Assembly: GCF_000023205.1 (NCBI RefSeq)
Contig: NC_012803.1
Coordinates: 330,001-362,000, forward strand
DNA: 32,000 nucleotides
Direction of reading: 5' to 3'
Source of the DNA: Micrococcus luteus NCTC 2665
GTDB lineage: Bacteria > Actinomycetota > Actinomycetes > Actinomycetales > Micrococcaceae
The notes below the pieces were generated by a model. The model saw only the letters and a list, made by a program, of their open reading frames with translations, made no database searches and was not told the DNA's origin. Numbering within the stretch: position 1 is the first letter of the stretch; every line of letters begins with the position of its first letter. Below, piece after piece: positions 3,351-31,585 of the stretch. The translations under genes and the position numbers were made by a program.

Positions 3351-4760
<1,410 letters not shown>

Positions 4761-4818
4761 TCAGAGGCGAGTACACTGGACATCACGGGACGCGCTTCGG
4801 CGTCTTCCGTCCAACCGG

Positions 4819-4840
4819 ACCCCCGCCTTCGAGCGGGGGT
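4819..4840. terminator. GC-rich hairpin (8-bp stem ACCCCCGC/GCGGGGGT, 6-nt loop) at the left edge of the island
   Basis: It lies 16 nt downstream of the stop of the minus-strand gene ending at 4856. On the plus strand it is followed by TTCGTGTGTCTGCGTT. It could terminate transcripts from either direction. Confidence 0.5.
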
Positions 4841-4855
4841 TTCGTGTGTCTGCGT

Positions 4856-5484
4856 TCAAGGGGTCCAGACGTAAGAGTGCTGACGGATCTTGTTCAGCGA
4901 TCGGCCGATGGCGTTCATTCGGCGAACGGCATCGCGGTGGCGCTCAGTGACATGGCGGCGGCGCTGCTCGAAGTACGTCAGGACGTCCACGGCCTGCAGC
5001 AGGCGGCTCTGGTTCGAAGGGCCGAAGTACATCGTGTCCAACAGGTGGTCGAGTGCTCCGTCGGAGAGGCCCTGGACCGAGGCGGCTCGCATGCGTCGGT
5101 AGGTCAGACGGCTGTCATCGCGGAGGTGGTGGTCATCGGCGATCACCAGGAGGCCGTCCGCACGCAGGGACGTCCTCCGGTGCACGCGGTTCAAGAGCTG
5201 AGCGGACACCACGATGTGCGGTTTGGCGTCTTCCCATCCAGGCCGCTGACGCAGCCTGTCGACGTCGACACCCTGGAAGCCGAACCACGGGGTGTGCGCG
5301 GCGATGAGTTCGACGGCGCGTTGGCTGGCCCATGCGCGGACGCCGACGGGGGCGGCAGTCCAGTCGTCCTTGCCGTTAAACACCGCAGGCCATGGAACTC
5401 GAGCTGCTCCGGCACCGCCTGCGGGTGGTCGGCTCGGAGCTGTGCATGGAGCTGGTCCAGGTCCCTTGCCTGCCTGTCCCTCAA
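4856..5484 (-). CDS. Hypothetical protein, third gene of the RM-linked operon. Probable frame change near 5385-5398, so it may be a pseudogene; otherwise a GTG start at 5385.
   Basis: A long GC3-rich frame runs from about 5398 down to TGA at 4856. Upstream, a different GC3-rich frame opens at TTG 5484, overlapping the native stop of gene 2. The track ORF start at 5581 lies inside the IS256 inverted repeat and is an artefact. I recognise no family. Confidence 0.5.
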
Positions 5485-5538
5485 TCAGTCGCTTCAGACT
5501 CTTTCCCACTTGTCGCTGAGAGCCGACCCTGGTGGTCG

Positions 5539-6963
5539 AGTAGTGCCCCATAGAGTGGTGTAGCGCACGGTGACTGGGCACGTCGTTCCGGATGTGGACG
5601 CGGCCACCGTGTGATCCTTCGAGTCAACCTTCCACAGAATCCTCGAACGGAGTCATCACGATGACCGCTCCTCATATTGTCGACCCTGCCGGCCTGCTCG
5701 GCGAAGCCCTGTCCGAAGCATCCCCGGATTTGATGCGTTCGTTGCTGCAGACCGTGATCAACTCCCTGCTCTCCGCTGACGCCGACGCGGTGGTCGGCGC
5801 CGAATGGGGTAAACCCACCCCGGGCCGAGCTACCCAGCGCAACGGGTACCGGCACCGGGACCTGGACACCCGGGTCGGGACCCTGGACGTGGCGATCCCC
5901 AAACTCAGGTCGGGCACGTACTTCCCGGAGTGGCTGCTCGAGCGCCGCAAAAGGGCCGAATCCGCGCTGATCACGGTGGTCGCCGACTGCTACCTGGCCG
6001 GGGTCTCGACCCGGCGGATGGACAAACTGGTCAAGACCCTCGGGATCAACGCGCTGTCGAAGTCCCAGGTCTCGCGGATGGCCACCGAGCTGGACGAGCA
6101 GGTCGAGTCCTTCCGTCATCGCCCGCTCGGGGAGGCTGGGCCGTTCACGTTCGTGGCCGCCGACGCGCTGAGCATGAAGGTCCGCGAGGGCGGCCGGGTG
6201 GTCAACGCCGTGGTGCTGCTGGCCACCGGGGTCAATGGTGACGGCCACCGCGAGGTCCTCGGCCTGCGGGTGGCCACCTCGGAGACGGGGTCGGCGTGGA
6301 ACGAGTTCTTCGCCGACCTGGTGGCCCGGGGCCTGACCGGAGTCCGCCTGGTCACTTCCGACGCCCACACCGGGCTCAAGGACGCCATCGCCGCGAACCT
6401 GCCCGGAGCGACCTGGCAGCGGTGCCGGACCCACTACGCGGCGAACCTGATGGGCATCACCCCCAAGTCCATGTGGCCGGCCGTGAAGGCCATGCTGCAC
6501 TCGGTGTATGACCAGCCCGACGCCGCCAGCGTGGACGCCCAGTTCGACCGGCTGCTGGACTACGTCAGCGAAAAGCTGCCCGCGGTGGCCGAACACCTCG
6601 ATGGTGCCCGGGCGGACATCCTGGCGTTCACCACGTTCCCCAAGGACGTGTGGACCCAGATCTGGTCGAACAACCCGGCCGAACGGCTCAACCGCGAGAT
6701 CCGGCGTCGCACCGACGCCGTGGGCATCTTCCCGAACCGGGCAGCGATCGTGCGCCTGGTCGGGGCGGTGCTGGCTGAGCAGACCGATGAGTGGGCCGAG
6801 GGCCGCCGCTACCTCGGCCTCGAGGTGTTGGCCCGCTGCCGCCTCACCACCGTGGACGACACCGGGAACGAGGTGAACGCCGAACCGGAAACCACCCTCG
6901 AACTCAGCGCCTAACAGCACCAATGGAGGATCAGAGCGTTACACCACTACTCGGGACTTGACC
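5539..6963 (+). mobile_element. IS256-family insertion sequence (1425 bp)
   Basis: Imperfect 30-bp terminal inverted repeats (AGTAGTGCCCCATAGAGTGGTGTAGCGCAC versus the reverse complement of 6934-6963, 20/30 identical). Flanked by a perfect 8-bp direct repeat GGTGGTCG at 5531-5538 and 6964-6971. Confidence 0.8.
5661..6914 (+). CDS. IS256-family (Mutator-type) transposase
   Basis: Typical IS256 transposase sequence: 'GYRHRDLDTRVGTLDVAIPKLRSGTYFPEWLLERRKRAE', 'LVTSDAHTGLKDAI', 'WQRCRTHYAANL', 'SNNPAERLNREIRRRT'. ATG at 5661 is preferred over the track ORF start at 5592. Confidence 0.9.
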   Translation: MTAPHIVDPAGLLGEALSEASPDLMRSLLQTVINSLLSADADAVVGAEWGKPTPGRATQRNGYRHRDLDTRVGTLDVAIPKLRSGTYFPEWLLERRKRAESALITVVADCYLAGVSTRRMDKLVKTLGINALSKSQVSRMATELDEQVESFRHRPLGEAGPFTFVAADALSMKVREGGRVVNAVVLLATGVNGDGHREVLGLRVATSETGSAWNEFFADLVARGLTGVRLVTSDAHTGLKDAIAANLPGATWQRCRTHYAANLMGITPKSMWPAVKAMLHSVYDQPDAASVDAQFDRLLDYVSEKLPAVAEHLDGARADILAFTTFPKDVWTQIWSNNPAERLNREIRRRTDAVGIFPNRAAIVRLVGAVLAEQTDEWAEGRRYLGLEVLARCRLTTVDDTGNEVNAEPETTLELSA

Positions 6964-7450
6964 GGTGGTCGCGGGACCAGCGGTCGCCAGCGGCGTCGGT
7001 GAAGGTGAAGGCGGTCACCCGGAACCGTTCGGCGTTGGTCAGCGGCCGGGGGACCACGTCCAGTTCATCCGCCTGGACGCCGTAGCCCCACTCGTTCTTG
7101 CTCAGTTCGAAGTAGGTGCGTCCTGGAGGCAGCATGGCGGCGGTGAGATCGGGAACGGGATACTTCGACGCCACCGTGGCCCGTGCCCCGTAGACCGGGA
7201 CCTGGGAGGAGTTCTCCACGGCGAGGAACCAGCGCCGCGTGGGTGGGGCGCCGAACTCGTCATTGATCCGGGCGGCGACGCACATCCACGCGGCGACCTG
7301 GCGTGCCTGTTCCTGCTTTTCGCGCAGGTCCTGCCGCTCGTCGCGGCCCTTCTCGATCTGGCGCAACCGCCACGACTCCACGGCGGACCATGCCGCGGCC
7401 AGGAGCGCCAACACGGAGACCACGAGGGCGATGACGTTCGCAGCGTCCAT
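6947..7450 (-). CDS. Small membrane-anchored hypothetical protein (167 aa as found, 178 aa before the IS256 insertion), second gene of the RM-linked operon
   Basis: N-terminal hydrophobic helix 'VIALVVSVLALLAAAWSAV', then a charged helix, then a beta-rich region. High GC3. Its ATG shares one base with the stop of the upstream methyltransferase gene (TGATG, 7448-7452). The last 5 codons and the stop are supplied by the IS256 end. Confidence 0.65.
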   Translation of the reverse strand: MDAANVIALVVSVLALLAAAWSAVESWRLRQIEKGRDERQDLREKQEQARQVAAWMCVAARINDEFGAPPTRRWFLAVENSSQVPVYGARATVASKYPVPDLTAAMLPPGRTYFELSKNEWGYGVQADELDVVPRPLTNAERFRVTAFTFTDAAGDRWSRDHRSSPE

Positions 7451-9115
7451 CAGAACATCTCCTCCTGCGCAGTGGAGAAGTCCCGCTTGATCGTCTTGGG
7501 AACCTTCCGTTCGGCCGGGGTCGGTTCGGGGAGTTCGTTCGCCGGGATCAGGTCTCCGGCGAGGATCTCGTCCAAGAGGTCTGCCTGGTCACCGCCCAGT
7601 GACACGGTCTCGGTCAGCACTCGGAGCAGATCGAGCAGCTCGTCGTTCCACTCGTCTGCCCACTCAGTGGGGCGGATACGGTCCAGCGGGGTGGCCGCCT
7701 TGCCGGCGGCGCGGCCGATGCCGGTGGCCGTCCTGGCGCCGAGCCACTTGTCCAGGATGTTCATGCCGGACACGGTGAAGGCCCTGACCTCCGGGCTCAC
7801 GCCGGTGACGACGCCGTCCCCCACCGTCAGACGCTGGGTGGCAGGGTCGTAGGACACGGCCCGCGGGGAGGCAGGCAACGCCGTCACGGGGGCTTCCCAA
7901 CCCAGGCCAGGAATGCGGGGTACGCGGCCGGCGGGGCGATCTGCACCGGTGAACCGCTCCCCGTAGGTCTGCAGCCACAGCAGACGTTCACCCAGCTTCA
8001 CGGCACGGGTGAACAGGTCAGGGTCGGCAGTCAGCGGCACGCGGACGGGGCTGCCCTCCAGGGCTTCGTCGAACCGCTGGACGTAGGCGTCGTGGCCGGC
8101 GACGCCCATGACATAGGCGGCCAGGTCTTCCGGCGTGACCTCTCGGCCGTAGCGCTCCCCCAGCAGCGGGAGCAGCCCGCCGGTGACGTTGGGCTGAGCG
8201 GCTTCAGCGTCCCGGTAGAGGGGGATGACGTCCTTGCCGCCGTAGGAGCCGACGAAGTAGTGCTTGTCCGGCACGGCCGTGGCCACGGTCACGGCGGGGC
8301 CACCGCTGATGCGGGCTGTCCTAGGGGAGACAAAGAACAGCTGGCGGTCCGACAGCGCTTGCCAGAGTGCGGGGCTGTCCGTCTTCGCCAACCGGGGGTC
8401 GTCGAAGGTCCACTGGCGGTCGAAGGAGCGCCACGCCACCCGTGTGATCGGCCGGTGCTCAGCGTCGGCGGGCAGCGCCGCCAAGGGGGTCAGGCCGCTC
8501 ACGGCGGTGTGGATGGTGCGCCCAGAGTGGCCCGTCACATACTTCTCCGCACGGGCGTCCGCGGACGGGTCAGCCAACAGCTCTCGCCACCGCCGTTGCA
8601 AGGTGTCCTGATCCGGGGCCACGGGCCAGGCGCGGTTGTACATCATCCCCGGCTGCTGCCAGGGGAAGAGGTCCGCCAGGGCGGGCATCGCCGCCCAGTC
8701 CTCCCCGCCGCTGGCCGGTGCCAAGGGGTCGCCCGCCCCACCGGGCAGGCACTCCCATGTGCCGTCGTCGGGATCCAACCGGGCCACCTCGTCCAGGGCC
8801 GCGAACTTCTCCGCGCGCGTGCCCCGGAAGCGCCGGTAGTACACGGACGCTTCCCGGGCGGCCTTGCCGGTGCGCACCAGAGTCACGATCGCCACCGGGG
8901 TCTGGATGTCGAAGACGTTCTCCTCCTGGCGTGCCCCGCGGCCCTCGCCGCCAAGGTCCATCACCCAGATCTCACTGGCCGTCCGACGGGCCAGATCGCG
9001 CAGACCCACAAAGGCCGGGCCGGTCAGCCACGAGGACGCCGTGATGAAGGAGATGATCGCCTGGTCCCCGGGGTCCTGCTGGAACGCCTTCCAGATGGCC
9101 CACCGCCAGAAATAC
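7450..9115 (-). pseudogene. C-terminal fragment (551 native codons) of a type IIG / 'type ISP C-domain' restriction-modification enzyme, separated from its N-terminal part by ISL3
   Basis: Native sequence resumes at '...YFW|RWAIWKAF...'. It contains 'VAWRSFDRQWTFDDPRL', which I associate with the type ISP/IIG target-recognition C-domain. The first 57 codons of track ORF 7450..9288 are read-through from IS DNA. Confidence 0.8.
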
Positions 9116-10512
9116 GGCTCTCCTGACGCTTCCGTGGGTGTTCTGGCGAGCCGTTGACGAGGGCACGCCGCTCTCTGCCTAGGTTTCTGGCTGTTGAGGT
9201 CAGTTACCTGAAGGGCGGAGAACGGCGTGCGGAACGCAAGCCTATGGCGGTCCTTGCTGGGCGTCGAGAAGACGGTCGTGGAGGGCATCGAGTTCGATGA
9301 GGACGACCAGCTCCTGGTGGCTCATGTCCGTCCCCGGGCTCGAGTGCGTGGCCGGTGCGGGCGGTGCGGGCGCAGGTCGCCCGGGTACGACCGTGGCGAG
9401 GGTCGGCGGCGGTGGCGGGCGCTGGATCTGGGCACGGTGCAGGTCTACCTCGAGGCCGACGCCCCGCGGGTGGCCTGCCGCGAGCACGGTCCCACGGTGG
9501 CCGCCGTCCCGTGGGCCAGGCACGGGGCCGGTCACACCGTGGTGTTCGACGAGCAGGTGGCCTGGCTGGCCACGCAGTGCTCCAAGTCCGCGGTCACCGA
9601 GCTGATGCGCATCGCCTGGCGCACCGTCGGGGCGATCATCACCCGGGTCTGGGCCGACGTGGAGGCCCTCGGCGACCGGTTCGCCGGCCTGCGACGGATC
9701 GGCATCGATGAGATCTCCTACAAGAAGGGCCACCGCTACCTCACGATCGTGGTCGACCACGACACCGGCCGGCTCGTCTGGGCCGCCCCGGGCCGGGACA
9801 AGGCGACCCTGGCGGCGTTCTTCGAGGCCCTCGGGCCCGACCGGTGCGCCGAGATCACCCACGTCAGCGCCGACGGGGCGGACTGGATCGCCGCCGTGGT
9901 CGCCGAGCGGTGCCCGAACGCGGTGCGGTGCGCTGATCCGTTCCACATCGTCAAGTGGGCCACCGAGGCCCTGGACGAGGTCCGTCGCCAGGCGTGGAAC
10001 GAGGCCCGTGGCGCGGTCCGGCAGCGCCGGGCCGGGCGGGCCGGCGGGCACGCCAAGGCGCTCAAGCACGCCCGGTACGCGCTGTGGAAGAACCCCGAGA
10101 ACCTCACCACCCGGCAGCAGGCCAAGCTCGCCTGGGTCGCCAAGACCGACCCGCGCCTGCACCGGGCCTACCTGCTCAAGGAAGGACTGCGCCTGGTCTT
10201 CCAGCTACCCGCCGACGAGGCCGAGACGGCCCTGGAACGCTGGATCGGCTGGGCCCGACGTTGCCGCATCCCCGCCTTCGTCGAGCTCCAACGCCGCATC
10301 GTCAAGCACAAGGCCTCGATCCTCGCCGCGATCGAGCACGGCCTGTCCAACGGACGTATCGAGTCCGTGAACACGAAGATTCGGCTCATCACCCGCGTCG
10401 CCTTCGGCTTCAAGTCCCCCGAAGCCCTCATCGCCCTGGCCATGCTCAACCTCGGCGGCCACCGACCCGTCCTACCGGGCCGGAAATGACCCACGGATCA
10501 GTCAGGAGAGCC
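9116..10512 (+). mobile_element. ISL3-family insertion sequence (1397 bp)
   Basis: 24-bp terminal inverted repeats: GGCTCTCCTGACGCTTCCGTGGGT (9116-9139) versus the reverse complement of 10489-10512 (21/24). Perfect 8-bp target-site duplication AGAAATAC at 9108-9115 and 10513-10520. Confidence 0.9.
9227..10489 (+). CDS. ISL3-family transposase (420 aa, GTG start)
   Basis: N-terminal zinc-finger-like 'GRCGRCGRRSPGYD' and DDE region 'IGIDEISYKKGHRYLTIVVDHDTGRLVW ... HVSADGADWI ... SNGRIESVNTKIRLITRVAFGF' are typical of ISL3 transposases. Confidence 0.9.
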   Translation: MRNASLWRSLLGVEKTVVEGIEFDEDDQLLVAHVRPRARVRGRCGRCGRRSPGYDRGEGRRRWRALDLGTVQVYLEADAPRVACREHGPTVAAVPWARHGAGHTVVFDEQVAWLATQCSKSAVTELMRIAWRTVGAIITRVWADVEALGDRFAGLRRIGIDEISYKKGHRYLTIVVDHDTGRLVWAAPGRDKATLAAFFEALGPDRCAEITHVSADGADWIAAVVAERCPNAVRCADPFHIVKWATEALDEVRRQAWNEARGAVRQRRAGRAGGHAKALKHARYALWKNPENLTTRQQAKLAWVAKTDPRLHRAYLLKEGLRLVFQLPADEAETALERWIGWARRCRIPAFVELQRRIVKHKASILAAIEHGLSNGRIESVNTKIRLITRVAFGFKSPEALIALAMLNLGGHRPVLPGRK

Positions 10513-12127
10513 AGAAATACACGTACAGGTTGTACAGCGAGGCCTGGGCGGAGAAGATCACCCCCTGCTCCTGGGCGGGGCCGATCACGTCGTCGAACAG
10601 CGCGTCCTCGCCGTCCCCGTGCTCCACCCAGCCGCCGGTGCCGGAGGTCACCCGGTCATAGGGCGGGTTGCCGATGGCCACGGTGATGCGCCGGTCCCGC
10701 TTGATCCGGCGGGCCGCCTCGGCGGCCTCGGCGAGGACCCGCGCGTCGCCGAACAACCCCTCCGCCATGCCCGCCGACGGGTCCTCCAGGGTGTCCGTCA
10801 GGTACACGCCGATCTCCTCCGCCTGGAAGGCGTGACCCTGCGCCTCAGCGAGCCGCTGACCGATGCGCAGGTGCGCCACCGAGTATGGGCCGGGCAGCAG
10901 CTCGAAGGCCAGCAGGTTCTTCGTGAGGTTCTTGGCCACCTGGGCCACCCCCGCCGGGCCGCGTTCCTCCCGGGCCGCTGCCTCCGCGCGGTCGATGACC
11001 GCCAGCGGGTAGGTGCCGGAGCCCGTCGCGGGGTCCAGCGTCACCACCGAGGGGGCGCCGAAGCCCAGGGTCTGACCGAAACGTTCCCGCAGCAGCGCGT
11101 CCACCACGCGCACCTGGCACTGCACCACACTGATCGGCGTGTAGTAGACACCCGCGCGGTTACGGGCGGCCGGGTCGTAGCGCTGGAGGAAGTCCTCGTA
11201 GAACCACAGCCACGGCTCACCACGGGAGTCCGTGGAGCGCTCGATGGCGGCCACGTCCATGCTGGACACCAGCCGCATGATGGCCCCGACCTCCGGGGCG
11301 ATGTACTCCATGAGCGCCGGGATGCCGATGATCGGTCCGAGGGACGCCGCCAGAACATTGCGGTGGGCCGTCTCCAGGGCGTGCTTGGCCTCCTCGAGCG
11401 TCACCACGCCGTCGGCGTTCCGGTCCGCTTGGCCGGAGAGACCGGCGATGGCCATGGAGTAGGCCACCACCTGGGCGACGTCGCCCGCGAACTGGGCGTC
11501 CGTGGTCGTGTGGTGCACCGTGTGGTCCCAGGCCGCCTTCGCCTCCCGCACCGAGCGGTAGTTGTTGGACAGGCCTTCCTGGAGGCGCTCTCGAAGGAAG
11601 CGGGCCAGCGGGGCCAGGCGGTCCGCGAGCTGGCCCACTCGGGTGATCGGCCGGGGCTGGGCCAGGGTGAACTGTTCCAGGACGGTGCGCAGGCGGTCCG
11701 CGTCCCAGCCTGCGACGCCGTCGACGGGCAGGAACGCGGTGTCCACAAGGGAGCCGGAGACATAGAGGGCGATCTCGTCTCCGTTCGAGACGAGCAGCGC
11801 GTCCAGCTGGGAGAGCAGGTCCCACTGGCCCTTCTCCCGGCCGCGCCACTTCTCTCCGATGACCGTGTGGCCGGGTGCCTTGAGTTCCACCCATCCGCAG
11901 GGGCGACCGTCGATCAGGGCGGCGAAGTCCGGGCGCACGCCGTCGAGCTGGGCCTCTCGCAGCAGGCTGAGGTCCCCAAGCCCGGTGACGAAGGAGAACG
12001 CGCGCAGGAACTCGGAGACCGGGACCGTCAGCTGCGCCTCCGGCTCGGCGGAGACCCCGCTCGTGGAGGCGAGCCGCACGTCACGGGCGTACGTCTCAGC
12101 GAGCTGGGCGAGGGGTGCGTCGATCAT
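10502..12127 (-). pseudogene. N-terminal fragment (539 native codons plus 2 IS-derived codons) of the same RM enzyme: PD-(D/E)xK-like motif plus gamma-class N6-adenine DNA methyltransferase
   Basis: ATG at 12127. 'RPDFAALIDGRPCGWVELK' is a D...ExK motif. 'GVYYTPISVV' and the AdoMet motif 'LDPATGSGTY' are present. Catalytic 'NPPY' is at 10658-10669. The frame ends 'YVYFW-LS*' inside the ISL3 inverted repeat. Confidence 0.85.
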
Positions 12128-12327
12128 GTGTCCTGCCTTGCAGTGAAGAGGGTGGCGCGAGTCACTCTATCCAGACGGGGCGTGCTCGACTGGGCTGACA
12201 CCGCGGAGGCCGGCCTCGCCCCGCTCGTGGCGAGAAATCTGGTCGGGCTCGCCGGCGCCCTCGTCCTCCTCGCCGTCAGCCGCCGGGACACGCCCTCGGT
12301 CCGCCAGCTGGACCCGGCCGCCCCGGC

Positions 12328-13290
12328 TCAGCCCAGCACCTCCCGCGCCACCGCGCTCGCCACCACCAGGTCCTGCCAGGGCATGCCCGTGGTGACGAAC
12401 AGGGCGGGCGCGCCCTCCCGACGACGCGCGGTCCCGGCCACGAGCTCGGCCAGCGTCACCGTGTCCTCGATCCCGGCGAGGGCGCCGGAGGCCACCGCGA
12501 GGGTCACGTCCCCGGCCTCGCGGGCGGCCGAGTCCCGCGACTCCACCGCCACGGTCGCGCGGCGGGCCAGGGCGTCGTCGGTCTCGCGGGCGTCCGTGGT
12601 GTGCGAGCCCATCGCCACGACCGTCGCGTGCTCCGGCACGAGCGTCCCGTCGAACAGCGGGGCCGTCGCGGCCGTGCACGTCACCACGACGTCCGCCTCC
12701 GCCACGGCCTCCGGGCCCGCGGCGCTCGCGGTCACGCCCAGCTCCGCTTCGCTGCGCGCGGCCAGGGCGGCGGCCCGGCCGGCGTCGCGGCCCACCACGG
12801 ACACCCGTTCCAGCCCGAACACGTCCTGGAACGTGAGCGCGTGCTCCCACGCCTGCACGCCCGTGCCGAACACGACCAGGTGCCGGGGCGAGGCGTCCGC
12901 GAGCAGCCGCACCCCGAGCGCGGACACCGCGGAGGTGCGCAGACCCGTGAGCTCGACGCCGTCCAGCACGGCCCGCGGCGCCTGGCCGGGGCTGCCCGGG
13001 GCGCCGAACAGCACGTAGACGCCCTGGATGACGGGCAGTCCGCGCTCCGGGTTGTCCGGCGTGAGGGTGAGCAGCTTGGTGCCGACCTCGGTCCCGCGCG
13101 TCGAAGGCATCTGCAACAGCTGCCCGGCGGCGGTGGCCACGCGGGTGCGGGGGGCGTCGGCCTCCGGGTCCAGGCCGGCGGCGAGGGCCGCCTCCAGTGC
13201 GTCCACGGCGGCACACGGGCTCAGGGCGGAGCGCACGGCGGGGCCGTCGATCCAGGGCAGACCGGGGGCGGTCGAGATCGGGGTGCTCAT
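12328..13290 (-). CDS. ornithine cyclodeaminase / mu-crystallin family protein (320 aa)
   Basis: Family-typical 'GLRTSAVSALGVRLLA' and Rossmann motif 'LVVFGTGVQAWEH'. High GC3. Confidence 0.8.
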   Translation of the reverse strand: MSTPISTAPGLPWIDGPAVRSALSPCAAVDALEAALAAGLDPEADAPRTRVATAAGQLLQMPSTRGTEVGTKLLTLTPDNPERGLPVIQGVYVLFGAPGSPGQAPRAVLDGVELTGLRTSAVSALGVRLLADASPRHLVVFGTGVQAWEHALTFQDVFGLERVSVVGRDAGRAAALAARSEAELGVTASAAGPEAVAEADVVVTCTAATAPLFDGTLVPEHATVVAMGSHTTDARETDDALARRATVAVESRDSAAREAGDVTLAVASGALAGIEDTVTLAELVAGTARRREGAPALFVTTGMPWQDLVVASAVAREVLG

Positions 13291-18801: not shown

Positions 18802-19125
18802 ATGCCCTCCTACCGCGCCCGCCTGCAGATCGGCGACCTCCTGCCCGGCCACCGGCCCGAAGAGGTCATGGACCTGGCCGAGGCCGCCGTCCAGGCCACG
18901 CACGTGCTCGCGGCCAAGGACCTCGAGGTCGTCGCGCGCGTCCCGCGGATCGTGCTGCGCTTCACGGTGCCCGGCTCGCACCGGGCCGGCGAGGACGCCG
19001 AGGCCGCCGAGGTGGCGCGGCGGATGGCGGAGGCGGTGTCCGGCGTCGCCGTGACGGGCCGGTTGGACGTGCTCCGGCGCGACGGCGGCCGGTGGGTCCC
19101 GGTGCCCGCTGGGCCCGGGCGCTGA
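18802..19125 (+). CDS. Small hypothetical protein (107 aa)
   Basis: Open frame with near-uniform G/C at third positions. Convergent with the gene ending at 19138. No family recognised. Confidence 0.5.
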   Translation: MPSYRARLQIGDLLPGHRPEEVMDLAEAAVQATHVLAAKDLEVVARVPRIVLRFTVPGSHRAGEDAEAAEVARRMAEAVSGVAVTGRLDVLRRDGGRWVPVPAGPGR

Positions 19126-19137
19126 ACGGGGCTGGGC

Positions 19138-21471
19138 TCAGGCGCCGGCCGGGAGCGGCCGGCGGGCGGCGTCGCGCTCGATCTGGCGGACCCAGGAGCG
19201 GCGCACGGCCGCGGCGGTGAGCAGCAGCAACGCCCCGAAGGCGGCCGCGAGACCCACCCACGCGCTCTGCTGTGCCCCGAGCGGGCTGGGCAGCAGGCGG
19301 GGCAGGGCGAGGCAGAGCAGGGTCCAGGCCATGCCCAGGGCCACACCCATGCGGCCGCGCCCACCGAGCACGAGGCGCAGGGCCGCCAGCAGCAGGGCCA
19401 CCAGCACCAGCAGGGCGAGCAGCTCAGTCGGGAACCAGTCGACGTGCACACCCCAGGCGTGGAGGGCGGCGCCCACCGCGGTGGGTGCGCCGGCGAGGAG
19501 GGTGCCCAGCAGCACGCCGAGCGCGCCGTCCTCGGCCACCCGTGCGAGGCGGCGGGCCGCCGGGCGGGCGCCGAGCCGCCGGACCACACGGAGCATGAGG
19601 ACCAGGGCGAGCAGCCACGGGACGACGTCGAAGCCCCCGGGGGCCAGGACGGCCAGGGGGAACCACAGCGTCAGCGCCAGCAGGGTCCCCGCGACCGCGC
19701 CCCGGATGCGGCGGTGCCGCGGCGACGCCCCCTGGCCCCGCCCCCACTGCCGGAGCACGTACATCCCGGTCAGCAGCCACAGCACCGGCCAGATCGCCGG
19801 GTGCAGCGGGGACAGCCCGAACACGCTCGCGCCGGGGCCGTGTCGGCCGTCGGCGGTGAGCGGGTACGCACCGGCGTCGAGCGCGCCGAGTCCCGGGACG
19901 CGCCCGGCCAGGCCGAGGCCCCACGCACTGGAGAGCACGAACAGCGCCCACACGAGTGTCAGCAGCGCCTGGCCGAGCCGGTCCGCGCGGGTCGGTGAGC
20001 CGGCCGGCTCCTCGGGCGGGGCGGGGGTGTAGCCGGGGATCAGGGGAAGGGCGCCCGTGACCGGCCCCGCCGAGGAGTGGGCGATGGCCTCGGCCCGGAC
20101 GGCCTGCGCCTTCGTGGACAGTCGCTGCCGCCGCCGCCACTCGGGCAGGGCCACCCGGGCCCGGGCGAACAGCTCCTCGTCGGTGAGCCGCTCCTCCGGG
20201 TCGGACAGCAGCGGCCGGTCGGCGGCGGCCGGGAAGACCTCGGGGCCCTCGAGCTCGCGCGCGGCCCGGGCGAGCGCGCGGGACTCCCGCTCCTCGTGCT
20301 CGCGACGGCGGCGGGCGGCGTCCTCCGCCGCACGGCGCTCGGCCTCCCGGGCGCGGTCCTCGAGGAGCCGGGCCTGGGCGAGGGCGCGTTCGGCGTGCAG
20401 CACGGTGTGGGCGCGGACGCGTGCGGCCTGGCGACGACGTCGCTCGGCCTCGCGGCGGGCGGCCTCCTCCGCCTCGCGACGGCGCCGCTCGGCCTCCTCG
20501 GCCCGACGGCGCCGCTCGGCCTCGACGCGTTCGGCCTCGAGGCGACGGCGTTCGGCCTCGGCCGCCTGCCGACGGCGCTCCGCCTCCGCCTCCGCCTCGA
20601 GCCGGAACCGCTCCCGCTCGGCGAGCGCGGCCTCCTCGCGGGCCCTCCGCTCCGCCTGCACGCGGGCGCGCTCGGCGGCGACCTCCGCCTCCCGGCGGCG
20701 CCGTTCCTCCTGCTCCTGGCGGCGGGCGTCCGCCTCGGCGGCGGCACGGGCCTTCTCCTCGGCCGCCACCCGACGGCGCCGCTCGGCTTCACGCCGACGG
20801 CGCTGCTTCTCCTCCTCGCGGCGGCGGCGGGCCACCCGCGCGGCCTGGGCCCGGCGGGCCTCCTCGTCGAGGCGGGCCTGGAGGGCGGCGGCGTCGCGAG
20901 CCCGGGCGGCGTCGCGGGCCTGTGCGGCGGCGGCCTCGGCGGCGACCCGCTCATGCTCGGCGGCCCGGCGACGGGCGGCCTCGGCGGCGCGCTCCCGGCC
21001 GGCTCGCAGGCGGGCCCGCCGGCGCTCCTCGGCCGCGGTGCGGCGGCGTGCGGCCTCCGCGGCCTTCGCCGGGTCCCGCCCCGGGGCGGGGAGGATGCGC
21101 TCGACCGTGCCGACGAGCGGATCGGCGAAACGGGCGAGGTCCGGGCTGCCGAGGCGGTCCAGGATCTCGCTGAGGTCGCGGCGTGGACGCTGCTCGGCGG
21201 GGGCGCCCGGGGTGCGCAGGCGGTCCATGGCGCGGTGCACGTCCGCGCGGCGGTCCTCGCGCACGCGGCGCTCGGCGGCGGTCTCGGGTCGGCCCGAGCG
21301 CAGGGCGCGCTCGTGACGGCGCAGATCGCGGCGGGAGATCTCCCCGGGCGCGGCCAGGGCGCGGCGGGGGCGCGCGGCGGGGGCACGCGTCGCGTCGTCG
21401 TCGGGACGGGGCGCCGAGGCGTCCCGGAGGCGCTCGAGGGCGGCGCGGGACTCGGAGGACGCGTCCTGCAT
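19138..21471 (-). CDS. Membrane protein (777 aa) with a very long E/R/A-rich charged helical region and a multi-pass C-terminal membrane domain
   Basis: ATG at 21471 lies 2 nt after the dedA stop. Residues about 135-408 are almost only A/E/R. Residues about 500-770 contain several hydrophobic helices (for example 'LGQALLTLVWALFVLSSAWGLGLA' and 'LLALLVLVALLLAALRLVL'). The upstream part of track ORF 19138..22035 is a shadow of dedA. Confidence 0.7.
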   Translation of the reverse strand: MQDASSESRAALERLRDASAPRPDDDATRAPAARPRRALAAPGEISRRDLRRHERALRSGRPETAAERRVREDRRADVHRAMDRLRTPGAPAEQRPRRDLSEILDRLGSPDLARFADPLVGTVERILPAPGRDPAKAAEAARRRTAAEERRRARLRAGRERAAEAARRRAAEHERVAAEAAAAQARDAARARDAAALQARLDEEARRAQAARVARRRREEEKQRRRREAERRRRVAAEEKARAAAEADARRQEQEERRRREAEVAAERARVQAERRAREEAALAERERFRLEAEAEAERRRQAAEAERRRLEAERVEAERRRRAEEAERRRREAEEAARREAERRRRQAARVRAHTVLHAERALAQARLLEDRAREAERRAAEDAARRRREHEERESRALARAARELEGPEVFPAAADRPLLSDPEERLTDEELFARARVALPEWRRRQRLSTKAQAVRAEAIAHSSAGPVTGALPLIPGYTPAPPEEPAGSPTRADRLGQALLTLVWALFVLSSAWGLGLAGRVPGLGALDAGAYPLTADGRHGPGASVFGLSPLHPAIWPVLWLLTGMYVLRQWGRGQGASPRHRRIRGAVAGTLLALTLWFPLAVLAPGGFDVVPWLLALVLMLRVVRRLGARPAARRLARVAEDGALGVLLGTLLAGAPTAVGAALHAWGVHVDWFPTELLALLVLVALLLAALRLVLGGRGRMGVALGMAWTLLCLALPRLLPSPLGAQQSAWVGLAAAFGALLLLTAAAVRRSWVRQIERDAARRPLPAGA

Positions 21472-21473
21472 GC

Positions 21474-22079
21474 TCACCCCTTCCGGCCCCGGCGACGGTG
21501 GGCCATGATCCCCGCGATCATCAACCCTGCAAGGGTACCGAACACCATGCCGACCATCGCGGACGCCCACCACGGCAGGCCGGTGGCCCGGCCGGTGATC
21601 CAGCCGAGCCCCACCATGGACCCGGACCACGCGAGCGAGCCCGCCCCGGACAGCCACAGGAACACGGGCCAGCGGATCCCGCCGATCCCGGCCGCCGCCA
21701 TCGACGCCGTCCGTCCGCCCGAGACGAACCGCAGCACGGACAGCCCCGCCAGGCTGCCCGCCGGGCCCACCCTCACCAGCAGGGTTCGGATCCCCCGGTG
21801 GATCCGCCGCCACCACGCCCAGCGGTCCAGGCGGTCGGCGAGGCCGTGGCGGAACAGCGCGTAGAGGCCGACGTCCCCGGCCCAGCAGCCCAGCCACGCC
21901 GCCAGCACTGCGGCCACGGGGGAGACCCGACCCTCCGCCGCGAGCGCCCCCGAGCCGATGACCACCACCTCCGACGGGACGGGCGGGATCGGGGCGTCCA
22001 GGGCCACGAGCAGCGCGGTGAGCGGGTGGAACCACGCTCCGAGCGCGTCCAGCAGGCTGGCCGGGTCCCCGCCCGTCAC
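21474..22079 (-). CDS. DedA/VTT-domain family membrane protein (201 aa, GTG start)
   Basis: The hydrophobic profile and 'IPPVPSEVVVIGSGALAAEG ... GCWAGDVGLYALFRHG' are typical of DedA. The GTG start overlaps the rluA-family stop (GTGA). Confidence 0.7.
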   Translation of the reverse strand: MTGGDPASLLDALGAWFHPLTALLVALDAPIPPVPSEVVVIGSGALAAEGRVSPVAAVLAAWLGCWAGDVGLYALFRHGLADRLDRWAWWRRIHRGIRTLLVRVGPAGSLAGLSVLRFVSGGRTASMAAAGIGGIRWPVFLWLSGAGSLAWSGSMVGLGWITGRATGLPWWASAMVGMVFGTLAGLMIAGIMAHRRRGRKG

Positions 22080-26012: not shown

Positions 26013-26077
26013 GCAACGCGGGTTGAGTTGTCGCGGGTGTCCGACGGCGGGACCCGCGACAACTCAACCCGCGTTGC
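26013..26077. repeat. Perfect 26-bp inverted repeat (GCAACGCGGGTTGAGTTGTCGCGGGT, 13-nt spacer, reverse complement); possible lhr terminator or protein-binding palindrome
   Basis: Read directly: arms at 26013-26038 and 26052-26077 are exact reverse complements. It lies between the lhr stop (26102) and the VOC gene start (25964). Confidence 0.85.
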
Positions 26078-26101
26078 GGACGGACGGACGGCGTCGAGCT
26101 C

Positions 26102-31126
<5,025 letters not shown>

Positions 31127-31130
<4 letters not shown>

Positions 31131-31585
31131 GCGTGGTGGTACGGTCGGCCGGCGGAGATCTCCTGGGCCCGGTAGACCTGCTCCGCCAGGATCAGCCGCA
31201 CGAGCTGGTGCGGGAAGACGAGCGGGGACAGGGACCAGACGCGGTCCGCGCGGGCGTGGACCCGGGTGTCCACCCCGTACGCGCCTCCGATGACCATCGT
31301 CACCGGGGCGCCGACGTCGAACCGGCCCTGCAGGTGCCGCGCCAGGCCCGGCGAGTCGAACGCCGTCCCCCGCTCGTCCAGCAGGATCAGGTGCTCGTCC
31401 GCGCCGACCGCGCCCAGGATCCGGTCCGACTCCTCGGTGCGCGCCGCCTCCTCCTGCCGCGCGGAGTGCGGCAGCAGACGCCACGAGAGGTCGTAGGGCT
31501 TCTTGAGGCGCCGCTCGTAGCGGTCGATCCCGTCGACGACCCACGCCTCATGCTTCTTGCCGATGGCCAGCACCCGAACAGACAT
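31127..31585 (-). CDS. rlmH: 23S rRNA (pseudouridine1915-N3)-methyltransferase RlmH (152 aa)
   Basis: SPOUT/RlmH sequence 'VRVLAIGKK ... LILLDERGTAFDSPGLARHL ... VTMVIGGAYGV ... WSLSPLVFPHQLVRLILAEQVYRA'. ATG at 31585. The longer track ORF to 31864 is a run-on. Confidence 0.9.

What the first reader, a model, noticed from the sequence alone, without database searches (positions are those of the whole stretch)
4856..12127. Candidate undescribed three-gene defence-type operon: nuclease-MTase-TRD fusion + membrane-anchored protein + unknown protein, all translationally coupled and all damaged
Seen in the sequence: once the two IS elements and one TSD copy each are conceptually removed, three minus-strand genes read head to tail with overlapping signals.
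- Gene 1 runs 12127 to 7450 and is 1090 aa. Its stop shares a base with the gene 2 ATG (TGATG, 7448-7452).
- The native stop of gene 2 (5481-5483) overlaps a TTG (TTGA) that opens the 5' frame of gene 3, which runs down to 4856.
- Gene 1 combines a D...ExK motif, gamma-class N6-adenine MTase motifs (DPATGSGT, NPPY), and a C-terminal region with the RSFDRQW signature of type ISP/IIG specificity domains.
- Gene 2 has a TM helix, a charged helix and a beta-rich domain. I cannot place genes 2 or 3 in any family.
- The segment looks less GC-rich than its flanks. My hand counts of single 60-nt lines in gene 3 gave about 57-68%.
- It lies between core genes (tgt and an ocd-family gene).

Established knowledge: single-chain type IIG/IIL enzymes are normally self-sufficient.

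Inference: obligate coupling to a small membrane protein and a third protein would be an unreported architecture, for example an RM-type sensor plus a membrane effector. The triple inactivation suggests the module is dead in this strain and may have been counter-selected.
Basis: partly seen in the sequence, partly recalled or inferred. Interest (0 to 1): 0.75.

Follow-up and report, generated by a model that had tools for sequence, protein, structure and literature searches.

The report
IS-broken restriction enzyme with passenger genes
This is a single-protein restriction-modification gene of a known, common actinobacterial family, knocked out here by an insertion sequence and followed by a small membrane-protein gene linked to it only in Micrococcus and by a decayed DUF3800 gene; it is not a new three-gene defence system.

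Summary
Removing an ISL3 element (9116-10512) and an IS256-family element (5539-6963), each with one 8-bp target duplication, restores a 1090-aa gene 1 and a 178-aa gene 2 joined by TGATG. It also restores a gene 3 that starts at the gene 2 stop and carries a 1-nt frameshift.

The three-gene interpretation does not hold.
- **Gene 1** matches a catalogued Type IIG restriction-methylase model over its full length. At least 2806 relatives exist, and they stand alone in 13 loci from other genera.
- **Gene 3** is a DUF3800 (RNase H-like) gene that lacks its N-terminal DES motif. Intact 236-aa copies sit at the same locus with or without gene 1, and never with gene 2 in the contigs I could read.
- **Gene 2** is a real gene (dN/dS 0.17-0.42; confident helix plus beta-sandwich model). 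It is translationally coupled to gene 1 in every Micrococcus-type contig that carries it. However, it is absent or frameshifted next to intact gene 1 copies that are 74-96% identical with the same catalytic motifs.
- **The gene 2 superfamily** has 770 clusters and no Pfam model. Its other members are stand-alone and not near restriction or defence genes.

Verdict: an ordinary Type IIG enzyme in a variable locus between ocd and tgt, with a lineage-specific passenger. A functional gene 1-gene 2 partnership is not excluded (about 0.17).

The parts
10513..12127 (-). Gene 1, 5' part (codons 1-538). Contains the PD-ExK nuclease motif (D67, E81, K83), MTase motif I (DPATGSGT) and motif IV (NPPY). Ends at the ISL3 insertion inside the invariant YVYFWRW motif.
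9116..10512 (+). ISL3-family insertion sequence, 1397 bp, transposase ORF 9227-10489. The 8-bp target duplication AGAAATAC lies at 9108-9115 and 10513-10520.
   Evidence: Inverted repeat I12. Sequence. Pfam DDE_Tnp_ISL3 5e-75, HTH_Tnp_ISL3 and Zn_ribbon_ISL3. It is the only copy in the window.
7450..9115 (-). Gene 1, 3' part (codons 539-1090). Contains the end of the MTase domain and the Type_ISP_C target-recognition domain with RSFDRQW. The stop TGA is at 7452-7450.
   Evidence: clean 1090-aa ORF after excising the IS. Pfam Type_ISP_C 1e-68 over residues 684-1032. PADLOC REase_MTase_IIG PDLC03631 1.7e-266 over residues 20-1077.
6964..7450 (-). Gene 2, 5' part (about codons 1-162). Contains the N-terminal transmembrane helix (about residues 5-24), a charged helix up to residue 50, and most of the beta-sandwich. 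The ATG at 7450-7448 overlaps the gene 1 stop (TGATG).
5539..6963 (+). IS256-family insertion sequence, 1425 bp, transposase ORF 5592-6914. The 8-bp target duplication GGTGGTCG lies at 5531-5538 and 6964-6971.
   Evidence: Pfam Transposase_mut 5.6e-133. It is the only copy in the window.
5481..5538 (-). Gene 2, 3' end (about the last 16 codons, including the conserved G-R-L). Stop TGA at 5483-5481.
   Evidence: The restored 178-aa protein is identical to P0305 and 99% identical to P0001.
4856..5484 (-). Gene 3: a DUF3800 (RNase H2-like) remnant. It starts at the TTG 5484-5482, which overlaps the gene 2 stop. One base is missing near 5386-5392. It lacks the N-terminal ~27-35 codons, including the DES motif, of full-length 236-aa homologues. 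The C-terminal QxxD motif (QAVD) is retained.
   Evidence: Pfam DUF3800 6.9e-6, matching profile positions 51-148 only. Alignment A2. blastn breakpoint at window 5461 against L011 10105. tblastn with P0344. DE/QxxD motifs per PMC7736814.
3351..4703 (-). Flanking core gene tgt (queuine tRNA-ribosyltransferase family).
   Evidence: Pfam TGT 5.5e-123. The same neighbour is seen in L008, L011, L015 and L029/L030.
12328..13290 (-). Flanking ornithine cyclodeaminase/mu-crystallin family gene.
   Evidence: Pfam OCD_Mu_crystall 1.3e-44. The same neighbour is seen in L011.

Best explanation
The segment is a decaying part of a variable locus between ocd and tgt in a Micrococcus luteus-type chromosome. 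It holds three genes of separate origin, not one three-part machine.

**Gene 1** is a self-sufficient single-chain Type IIG/IIL restriction-modification enzyme. It has an N-terminal PD-ExK nuclease, a gamma-class N6-adenine methyltransferase and a C-terminal Type_ISP_C recognition domain.
- Inferred from the family (MmeI, DrdV): it binds an asymmetric site through the C-terminal domain. It methylates one adenine with SAM to mark host DNA. It cuts unmethylated incoming DNA at a fixed distance from the site.
- Shown: in this strain it is destroyed by an ISL3 insertion inside the invariant YVYFWRW motif.

**Gene 2** encodes a small membrane-anchored protein. It has a transmembrane helix, a charged helix and a beta-sandwich, and the positive-inside rule predicts that the beta-sandwich faces the cytoplasm.
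- It comes from a large actinobacterial family with no Pfam model, whose other checked members are stand-alone.
- In one Micrococcus sub-clade a copy sits directly behind gene 1 and is translated by coupling to it.
- I judge it most likely a co-expressed passenger with its own, still unknown, membrane-associated role. It is not a subunit the enzyme needs.
- Here it is truncated by an IS256-family insertion.

**Gene 3** is a remnant of a DUF3800 (RNase H-like) gene that resides independently at the same locus. Its 5' end, with the catalytic DE motif, was lost at the junction with gene 2, and it carries a 1-nt frameshift.
For: **Gene 1.**
- Full-length match to PADLOC REase_MTase_IIG (1.7e-266).
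- Type_ISP_C at 1e-68.
- The family profile matches the Type IIL enzyme DrdV (7lo5) over residues 293-923, E = 1.3e-45.
- The catalytic motifs are invariant.
- At least 2806 relatives of about 1090 aa exist.
- Downstream genes are unrelated in 13 loci from other genera.

**Gene 2 is real and linked to gene 1 in Micrococcus.**
- dN/dS is 0.17-0.42.
- The AlphaFold model has mean pLDDT 83.8.
- TGATG plus a Shine-Dalgarno sequence is conserved in L001-L010.
- The gene call also starts on the gene 1 stop in L032-L034.

**Gene 2 is dispensable or independent.**
- The window and L011 are 95.4% identical exactly up to the gene 1 stop. After that, gene 2 plus 24 nt in the window replaces 128 nt in L011.
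- L015 and L035-L037 lack gene 2.
- In M. porci gene 2 is frameshifted twice beside an intact gene 1.
- Gene 1 motifs are identical with and without gene 2.
- The superfamily has 770 clusters. Contexts of relatives at 53%, 41%, 33% and about 33% identity, and of about 29 metagenome loci, show no gene 1 homologue. Their neighbours are heterogeneous housekeeping genes with 0 of 38 PADLOC hits.

**Gene 3.**
- DUF3800.
- The N-terminal DES motif is missing relative to the 236-aa homologues.
- Full-length copies occur beside gene 1 without gene 2 (L011, L015), and also without gene 1 (L012, L013).

**Topology.** In 134 of 140 family members there are more Lys/Arg residues after the transmembrane helix than before it (mean 4.0 against 0.3).
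Against: - The gene 1-gene 2 junction has stayed intact while synonymous sites are close to saturation (dS 0.6-1.5). Gene 2 of this clade was found only behind gene 1. Both facts also fit a functional partnership.
- Intact gene 2 is common in M. luteus (P0305 on at least 1000 contigs).
- The sample of gene 2-less relatives is small: three haplotypes plus one pseudogene.
- No function is shown for gene 2. Foldseek gives only generic beta-sandwich matches.
- Some superfamily members are fused to an SBP_bac_8 domain, which is normally extracytoplasmic. This conflicts with the predicted cytoplasmic topology.
- Un-frameshifted 209-aa forms of gene 3 with the same start exist (P0344). The 175-aa part shows dN/dS of about 0.15 against intact orthologues, so residual function of a DE-less DUF3800 cannot be excluded.
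- No enzymatic activity was tested.
Confidence: 0.7

Rival explanations
1. Two-gene system. In the Micrococcus clade, gene 2 is a true accessory of the Type IIG enzyme. It could act as a membrane tether that places the enzyme where phage DNA enters, as a regulator that delays or limits cleavage, or as a membrane effector triggered by the enzyme.
For: - The one-base stop/start overlap and the internal Shine-Dalgarno sequence are conserved in the contigs of three lineages checked (L001-L010). The gene call also starts on the gene 1 stop in L032-L034.
- Gene 2 is 60-86% identical across the clade and under purifying selection.
- This gene 2 clade was found only behind gene 1.
- The predicted topology puts the beta-sandwich in the cytoplasm, where it could meet the enzyme.
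- The locus is a variable spot that also holds DUF3800 and DUF4411/M78 modules.
Against: - Gene 1 is intact, with identical catalytic motifs, where gene 2 is deleted (L011, L015, L035) or frameshifted (M. porci).
- The rest of the gene 1 family lacks it.
- All more distant gene 2 relatives that were checked are stand-alone and outside defence contexts.
Confidence: 0.17
2. One reading: an obligate three-gene defence operon, with a restriction-modification-type sensor, a membrane effector and a third protein. It would be a new architecture that was counter-selected in this strain.
For: - The overlapping signals TGATG and TTGA are real.
- An un-frameshifted 209-aa gene 3 with the same start exists (P0344).
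- P0345, from the same 6021-bp contig size as P0320 in the lineage whose gene 2 is 86% identical, suggests that gene 2 and a longer DUF3800 co-occur there.
- All three genes are damaged here.
Against: - Gene 3 lacks the family's N-terminal DE motif in every gene 2-linked form seen.
- Intact DUF3800 occurs with gene 1 but without gene 2, and also without gene 1.
- Gene 1-gene 2 occurs with no DUF3800.
- In L001 only about 30 codons of gene 3 remain.
- The frameshifted form is on 805 contigs. It is therefore not a lesion that arose together with the IS insertions.
Confidence: 0.04
3. Gene 2 and DUF3800 form their own two-gene module that landed downstream of an unrelated restriction gene.
For: - The TTGA overlap in the window, and the same junction (RDR...) in L001.
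- P0345 and P0320 possibly lie on one contig.
Against: - The two genes are separable in both directions: L002, L008 and L032 against L011, L012 and L015.
- DUF3800 next to gene 2 is always N-terminally truncated.
- Distant gene 2 relatives have no DUF3800 neighbour.
Confidence: 0.04

Closest known systems
Type IIL / Type IIG single-chain restriction-modification enzymes (DrdV, PDB 7lo5; MmeI family; PADLOC model PDLC03631)
   Same: - One polypeptide of about 1000-1100 aa.
- N-terminal PD-ExK nuclease, gamma-class N6-adenine MTase (motif I before NPPY) and a C-terminal recognition domain.
- Full-length hit to the PADLOC IIG model.
- Profile match to DrdV across MTase and recognition domain.
- MmeI is described as a complete system in one protein (PMC2582602, abstract seen).
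   Different: - The nuclease region does not match DrdV at the sequence level.
- MmeI itself was not hit by sequence search.
- In one Micrococcus clade a small membrane-protein gene is translationally coupled to the 3' end. I found no mention of this for the characterised enzymes.
Type ISP enzymes LlaGI / LlaBIII
   Same: The MTase and Type_ISP_C recognition domains are homologous. NCBI names the family 'type ISP restriction/modification enzyme'.
   Different: There is no helicase-like ATPase motor. The matches cover only LlaGI residues 666-1283 and LlaBIII residues 830-1182, and the protein is 300-500 aa shorter. The nuclease is a short N-terminal PD-ExK module. By architecture the NCBI name is a misnomer.
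DUF3800 (PF12686), RNase H2-like proteins associated with type VII retrons and with several structured RNA motifs
   Same: - Gene 3 matches Pfam DUF3800 above the gathering score (27.3 against 21 bits).
- It keeps the C-terminal QxxD motif.
- Full-length relatives match the whole profile (P0011).
   Different: - The window copy lacks the N-terminal DE motif described for the family (PMC7736814) and is frameshifted.
- No retron reverse transcriptase is nearby.
- No Rfam DUF3800-associated RNA motif was found in the window.
PrrC-EcoprrI type arrangement (an effector gene embedded in a restriction-modification locus)
   Same: This resemblance is recalled from general knowledge only. In both cases an extra non-RM gene is co-located and co-expressed with a restriction system.
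   Different: Gene 2 has no nuclease or ATPase domain and no similarity to PrrC. It is dispensable in close relatives, and its family is otherwise unlinked to restriction genes.

Membership tests
Type IIG/IIL single-chain RM enzyme (gene 1) | Nuclease, methyltransferase and recognition domain in one polypeptide, with a full-length match to a family model | tested here: met
   PADLOC PDLC03631 REase_MTase_IIG, E = 1.7e-266, residues 20-1077 against profile positions 14-1062 of 1086. The ORF is 1090 aa after excising the IS.
Type IIG/IIL single-chain RM enzyme (gene 1) | N-terminal PD-(D/E)xK catalytic residues | tested here: met
   D67, E81 and K83 lie in the invariant block RPDFA...CGW.ELKAP across 12 relatives at 54-80% identity and in 8 Micrococcus loci.
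Type IIG/IIL single-chain RM enzyme (gene 1) | Gamma-class N6-adenine MTase: SAM motif I upstream of catalytic NPPY, recognition domain at the C-terminus | tested here: met
   DPATGSGT at 365-372 and NPPY at 487-490 are invariant. Type_ISP_C covers 684-1032. There are weak N6_Mtase and Eco57I hits, and a profile match to DrdV.
Type IIG/IIL single-chain RM enzyme (gene 1) | Site-specific one-strand methylation and cleavage at a fixed distance | not testable with these tools
   This needs a methylome or biochemistry on an intact orthologue such as WP_323662727.1.
Type IIG/IIL single-chain RM enzyme (gene 1) | Self-sufficiency: no obligatory partner gene | tested here: met
   In 13 loci from other genera and in 3 Micrococcus haplotypes, gene 1 is intact with no gene 2 or DUF3800 partner. 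This is inferred from genomics, not from function.
Type ISP RM enzyme (LlaGI/LlaBIII) | SF2 helicase-like ATPase motor between the nuclease and the MTase | tested here: not met
   No helicase domain in Pfam. PDB matches start at LlaGI residue 666 and LlaBIII residue 830, downstream of their motors.
BREX PglX methyltransferase | Embedded in a brx/pgl gene cluster, with a best match to PglX models | tested here: not met
   The PADLOC hits at E <= 0.1 are all REase_MTase or MTase models, and none is named PglX or Brx. The neighbours are ocd and tgt.
DUF3800 (gene 3) | Match to PF12686 above the gathering score | tested here: met
   27.3 bits against a cut-off of 21, covering profile positions 51-148 of 149 only.
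DUF3800 (gene 3) | N-terminal DE motif and C-terminal QxxD motif (PMC7736814) | tested here: not met
   QAVD is present. The DES segment seen in P0011-P0014 (MRICYLDESEQ...) is absent from the window copy and from P0344 and P0345. The copy is therefore a truncated member.
Any described family for gene 2 | Significant hit in Pfam, NCBIfam, PADLOC, PHROGs or a structural library | tested here: not met
   - Pfam: none. PADLOC: none.
- NCBIfam: GspM at E = 0.013, 15 bits against a cut-off of 60.
- PHROGs: phrog_22307 (unknown function) at 7.3e-5, over the helix region only.
- Foldseek against PDB and BFVD: best E >= 0.01, TM-score <= 0.43.

The most novel reading that the evidence does not exclude
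In the Micrococcus clade, the small membrane-anchored beta-sandwich protein is a true partner of the Type IIG enzyme. It would either tether or regulate the enzyme at the cytoplasmic face of the membrane, or act as a membrane effector downstream of DNA sensing. That would be a restriction enzyme with a membrane-bound accessory, recruited from a widespread uncharacterised actinobacterial protein family.
Probability: 0.17. Interest if true: 0.6.

Novelty: new member of a known kind. Interest (0 to 1): 0.3.

Why it matters
- **For the scan.** A plausible-looking "new three-gene defence system" turns out to be a catalogued Type IIG restriction enzyme plus two neighbours of independent origin.
- **Gene 2 family.** It defines an actinobacterial protein family with no Pfam, NCBIfam, PADLOC or structural match: 770 clusters at 50% identity, made of a transmembrane helix, a conserved charged helix and a beta-sandwich. 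One branch has become translationally coupled to a restriction gene. If that coupling is functional, it would be an unusual membrane-associated accessory for a Type II enzyme.
- **The locus.** The ocd-tgt interval is a small variable spot in Micrococcus. It shows gene-level presence/absence changes and a recombination breakpoint exactly at the gene 1 stop codon.
- **Annotation.** The database name "type ISP restriction/modification enzyme" for this family is misleading.

Tried and rejected
I used a degenerate DNA pattern for the FTD(A/S)xGxRWxR motif instead. That sample is biased towards members that keep the motif.
- **Foldseek** found nothing better than generic beta-sandwiches (FlgD, ApaG, TRAP subunits, binary-toxin domains). 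I ran the full gene 2 model against PDB and BFVD and the domain-only model against PDB. Best E was 0.01-0.03 and TM-score <= 0.43. In the domain-only run only one of five AlphaFold models was confident.
- **The NCBIfam GspM hit** (E = 0.013, far below the cut-off) was rejected as a transmembrane/coiled-helix artefact.
- **The PHROG hit** phrog_22307 (7.3e-5) covers only the helix and the first strands, and the family has no known function.
- **Rfam** at gathering thresholds found nothing in the window, so there is no DUF3800-associated RNA motif.
- **The promoter/terminator scan** of 4600-5600 found nothing. It is a sigma-70 consensus scan and is of little use in a genome with 74% GC.
- **dN/dS of the gene 3 remnant** against intact orthologues (about 0.15) cannot date the pseudogenisation, because dS is saturated.
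- **Type ISP and BREX PglX** were considered for gene 1 and rejected (see the membership test).

Full report
**1. What is in the sequence**

The window has about 74% GC. Named homologues place it in Micrococcus luteus or a close relative.

On the minus strand between 12127 and 4856 there are three reading frames broken by two insertion sequences.

- *First element (ISL3 family).*
  - It spans 9116-10512 (1397 bp), with inverted ends GGCTCTCCTGAC.../...GTCAGGAGAGCC.
  - Its 420-aa transposase matches DDE_Tnp_ISL3 at 5e-75.
  - It is flanked by the 8-bp duplication AGAAATAC at 9108-9115 and 10513-10520.
- *Second element (IS256 family).*
  - It spans 5539-6963 (1425 bp).
  - Its 440-aa transposase matches Transposase_mut at 5.6e-133.
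  - It is flanked by GGTGGTCG at 5531-5538 and 6964-6971.

Removing each element with one copy of its duplication restores the genes as follows.

- *Gene 1.* It is an uninterrupted 1090-aa ORF (12127 to 7450).
- *Gene 2.* It is a 178-aa ORF from the ATG at 7450-7448 to the TGA at 5483-5481. The gene 1 stop and the gene 2 start share one base (TGATG).
- *Gene 3.* The gene 2 stop overlaps a TTG at 5484-5482 that opens gene 3.
  - An un-frameshifted 209-aa form from other assemblies (P0344) aligns to 5484-5389 in one frame and to 5386-4859 in another. One base is therefore missing near 5386-5392.

The IS-free segment has 0.697 GC against 0.758 for the rest of the window. The flanking genes are TGT and an OCD_Mu_crystall-family gene.

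**2. Gene 1 is a member of a known, large family**

- The restored protein matches PADLOC model PDLC03631 (REase_MTase_IIG) end to end, E = 1.7e-266.
- It matches Pfam Type_ISP_C at 1e-68 over residues 684-1032.
- In a 12-sequence alignment reaching down to 54% identity, D67, E81 and K83, the DPATGSGT motif, NPPY and the RSFDRQW region all fall in invariant or nearly invariant columns.
- A profile of that alignment matches the Type IIL enzyme DrdV (7lo5) over residues 293-923, E = 1.3e-45.
- The same profile matches LlaBIII and LlaGI only downstream of their helicase motors. The architecture is therefore IIG/IIL and not ISP, although NCBI names the family "type ISP restriction/modification enzyme".
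- At least 2806 proteins match at E <= 1e-20. The best 120 are about 1080-1100 aa and come from Micrococcus, Arthrobacter, Brevibacterium, Corynebacterium, Dietzia, Kocuria and others.
- The ISL3 element sits inside the invariant YVYFWRW motif, so the enzyme is dead in this strain.

**3. Gene 3 is a truncated DUF3800 gene and an independent resident of the locus**

- Pfam places gene 3 in DUF3800, but only profile positions 51-148 are matched.
- Full-length relatives (P0011-P0014, 236 aa, 67-68% identical) begin MRICYLDESEQQQDG... and match the whole profile.
- The literature describes the family as RNase H2-like, with an N-terminal DE motif and a C-terminal QxxD motif (PMC7736814). The window copy keeps QAVD but lacks the DE segment.

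The contexts are as follows.

| Locus | Arrangement |
|---|---|
| L011 (M. luteus JTKE01000011) | ocd - gene 1 (1090 aa) - full DUF3800 - tgt, no gene 2 |
| L015 (M. lacusdianchii) | same as L011 |
| L012, L013 | full-length DUF3800, no gene 1 |
| L008 | gene 2 followed directly by tgt |
| L001 | about 30 codons of DUF3800 left between gene 2 and tgt |
| L002, L032 | a GerE-type gene on the other strand follows gene 2 |

A blastn comparison of the IS-free window with L011 is 95.4% identical from 13838 down to 7450, which is exactly the end of gene 1. Homology resumes only at window 5461 against L011 10105 (about codon 36 of DUF3800), and at 86.7%. Gene 2 plus 24 nt in the window thus takes the place of a 25-nt spacer and the first 35 codons of DUF3800 in L011.

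The frameshifted 175-aa ORF (P0008) is found on 805 contigs, including ACS29866.1, whose UniProt mnemonic MICLC I take to be the type strain. This lesion is therefore old and haplotype-wide, not specific to this strain.

**4. Gene 2 is a real gene, linked to gene 1 only in a Micrococcus clade**

*Evidence that it is real and linked.*
- A word-indexed search found only seven 90%-identity clusters (60-99% identical).
- In every contig with upstream sequence, gene 2 starts on the stop codon of a 1089-1090-aa Type_ISP_C protein. The TGATG junction and an upstream GGAGG/GGAAGG sequence were read directly in L001-L010.
- Pairwise dN/dS is 0.17-0.42 with dS of 0.6-1.5.
- AlphaFold gives a confident model (mean pLDDT 83.8): one long helix (residues 3-50, with the first ~20 hydrophobic) followed by an eight-strand beta-sandwich.
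- The intact protein (P0305, for example AYO50901.1) is on at least 1000 contigs.

*Evidence that the coupling is not obligatory.*
- Gene 1 copies at 95.7% (L011), 92.8% (L015) and 74.4% (L035) identity have no gene 2.
- In M. porci (gene 1 80% identical and intact), gene 2 carries two frameshifts.
- The nuclease, motif I, NPPY and recognition-domain motifs of gene 1 are the same in all these loci.
- None of 13 gene 1-family loci from other genera has a gene 2-like ORF. This was tested with an HMM built from the seven close gene 2 sequences (A1).

**5. The wider gene 2 family is stand-alone and not defence-linked**

- An exhaustive profile search found 770 representatives at E <= 1e-3 and 119 at E <= 1e-10. 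Almost all are 165-190 aa and align over their full length.
- Conserved features are ExxRD, QAxxVsAW, NxSxxPVYDV, LPPG and F(T)DaxGxRWxRDxxGxL.
- No Pfam, NCBIfam or PADLOC model matches.
- A few members carry a C-terminal SBP_bac_8 domain.
- The closest relatives outside the Micrococcus clade are P0139 (53%), P0140 (41%), P0142 (33%) and P0148 (about 33%). Each is a separate gene with its own upstream spacer and unrelated neighbours.
- About 29 metagenome loci, recovered through the C-terminal motif, contain family members but no gene 1 homologue.
- The 38 flanking proteins of the metagenome loci and of L038 hit 40 different Pfam families, mostly housekeeping, with only one family seen twice. 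None hits a PADLOC model at 1e-5.
- In 134 of 140 members there are more Lys/Arg residues just after the hydrophobic helix than before it (mean 4.0 against 0.3). The positive-inside rule then places the beta-sandwich in the cytoplasm. This is an inference, and the SBP fusions sit awkwardly with it.
- Foldseek finds only generic beta-sandwiches.

**6. Explanation**

The best-supported reading (about 0.7) is a mosaic.

- *Gene 1.* It is a self-sufficient Type IIG/IIL enzyme, here killed by ISL3.
- *Gene 2.* It is a lineage-specific, co-translated passenger drawn from a stand-alone actinobacterial membrane-protein family, here truncated by an IS256-family element.
- *Gene 3.* It is the remnant of a DUF3800 gene that lives independently in the same variable interval.

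For gene 1, the mechanism is inferred from the family: one-strand adenine methylation of an asymmetric site and cleavage of unmodified DNA at a fixed distance. It was not tested here.

The main rival (about 0.17) is that gene 2 truly assists or regulates the enzyme in Micrococcus. The conserved junction supports this. The presence/absence pattern and the behaviour of the wider family weaken it. The three-gene model and a gene 2-DUF3800 pair model each get about 0.04.

**7. Novelty and score**

- Gene 1 is a new member of a known kind.
- Gene 3 belongs to a described domain family.
- Gene 2 belongs to a sizeable family without any model or annotation, which is mildly interesting in itself.
- The proposed new architecture is not supported as stated.
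- Interest is 0.3. The most novel reading still open is the gene 1-gene 2 partnership (probability about 0.17, interest 0.6 if true).

Noticed in passing
Protein clusters of genes 1-3: Partial proteins identical or near-identical to the M. luteus genes are deposited on tiny contigs labelled Xanthomonas citri, Escherichia coli, Neisseria gonorrhoeae, Pantoea, Staphylococcus lugdunensis and Aquicoccus. This most likely reflects M. luteus contamination of those assemblies.
   Followed up: no
window 7450-12127; NCBI names this 1090-aa family 'type ISP restriction/modification enzyme'. It has no helicase-like motor, and by architecture it is a Type IIG/IIL enzyme like DrdV.
   Followed up: yes
L002 192-1843, L032 904-2555, L012 5992-7287 and the window interval 4704-12327: The interval between GATase/ocd and tgt is a variable spot in Micrococcus. 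Different contigs carry gene 1, gene 2, DUF3800, a DUF4411 plus Peptidase_M78 pair, a GerE-type regulator, or two ORFs of 135 and 294 aa.
   Followed up: partly
window 7450 / 5461 versus L011 9976 / 10105: Identity to the M. luteus contig JTKE01000011 drops from 95.4% (ocd and gene 1) to 86.7% (DUF3800 and tgt) exactly at the gene 1 stop codon. This points to a recombination breakpoint there.
   Followed up: partly
P0187, P0236, P0258, P0263, P0267: Five 533-591-aa proteins fuse the gene 2-type module (transmembrane helix, helix, beta-sandwich) to an SBP_bac_8 solute-binding domain. That domain is normally extracytoplasmic, which conflicts with the cytoplasmic topology predicted by the positive-inside rule.
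   Followed up: partly
L029 3792-4330, L030 3623-4160 (M. porci): Gene 2 is a double-frameshift pseudogene lying directly between an intact 1090-aa gene 1 and tgt.
   Followed up: yes
P0344, P0345, P0009: Other assemblies hold variant forms of gene 3. P0344 (209 aa) is un-frameshifted with the same start. P0345 (221 aa) reaches further towards the N-terminus but still lacks the DES motif. P0009 (189 aa) has an internal deletion that rejoins the two frames.
   Followed up: partly
window 19100-22050: This stretch has 0.80-0.83 GC, a strong swing in AT skew and several short tandem repeats (periods 13-27). It lies inside a 965-aa minus-strand ORF (19138-22035).
   Followed up: no
window 26064-31544: A very long minus-strand ORF of 1826 aa, not examined.
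   Followed up: no
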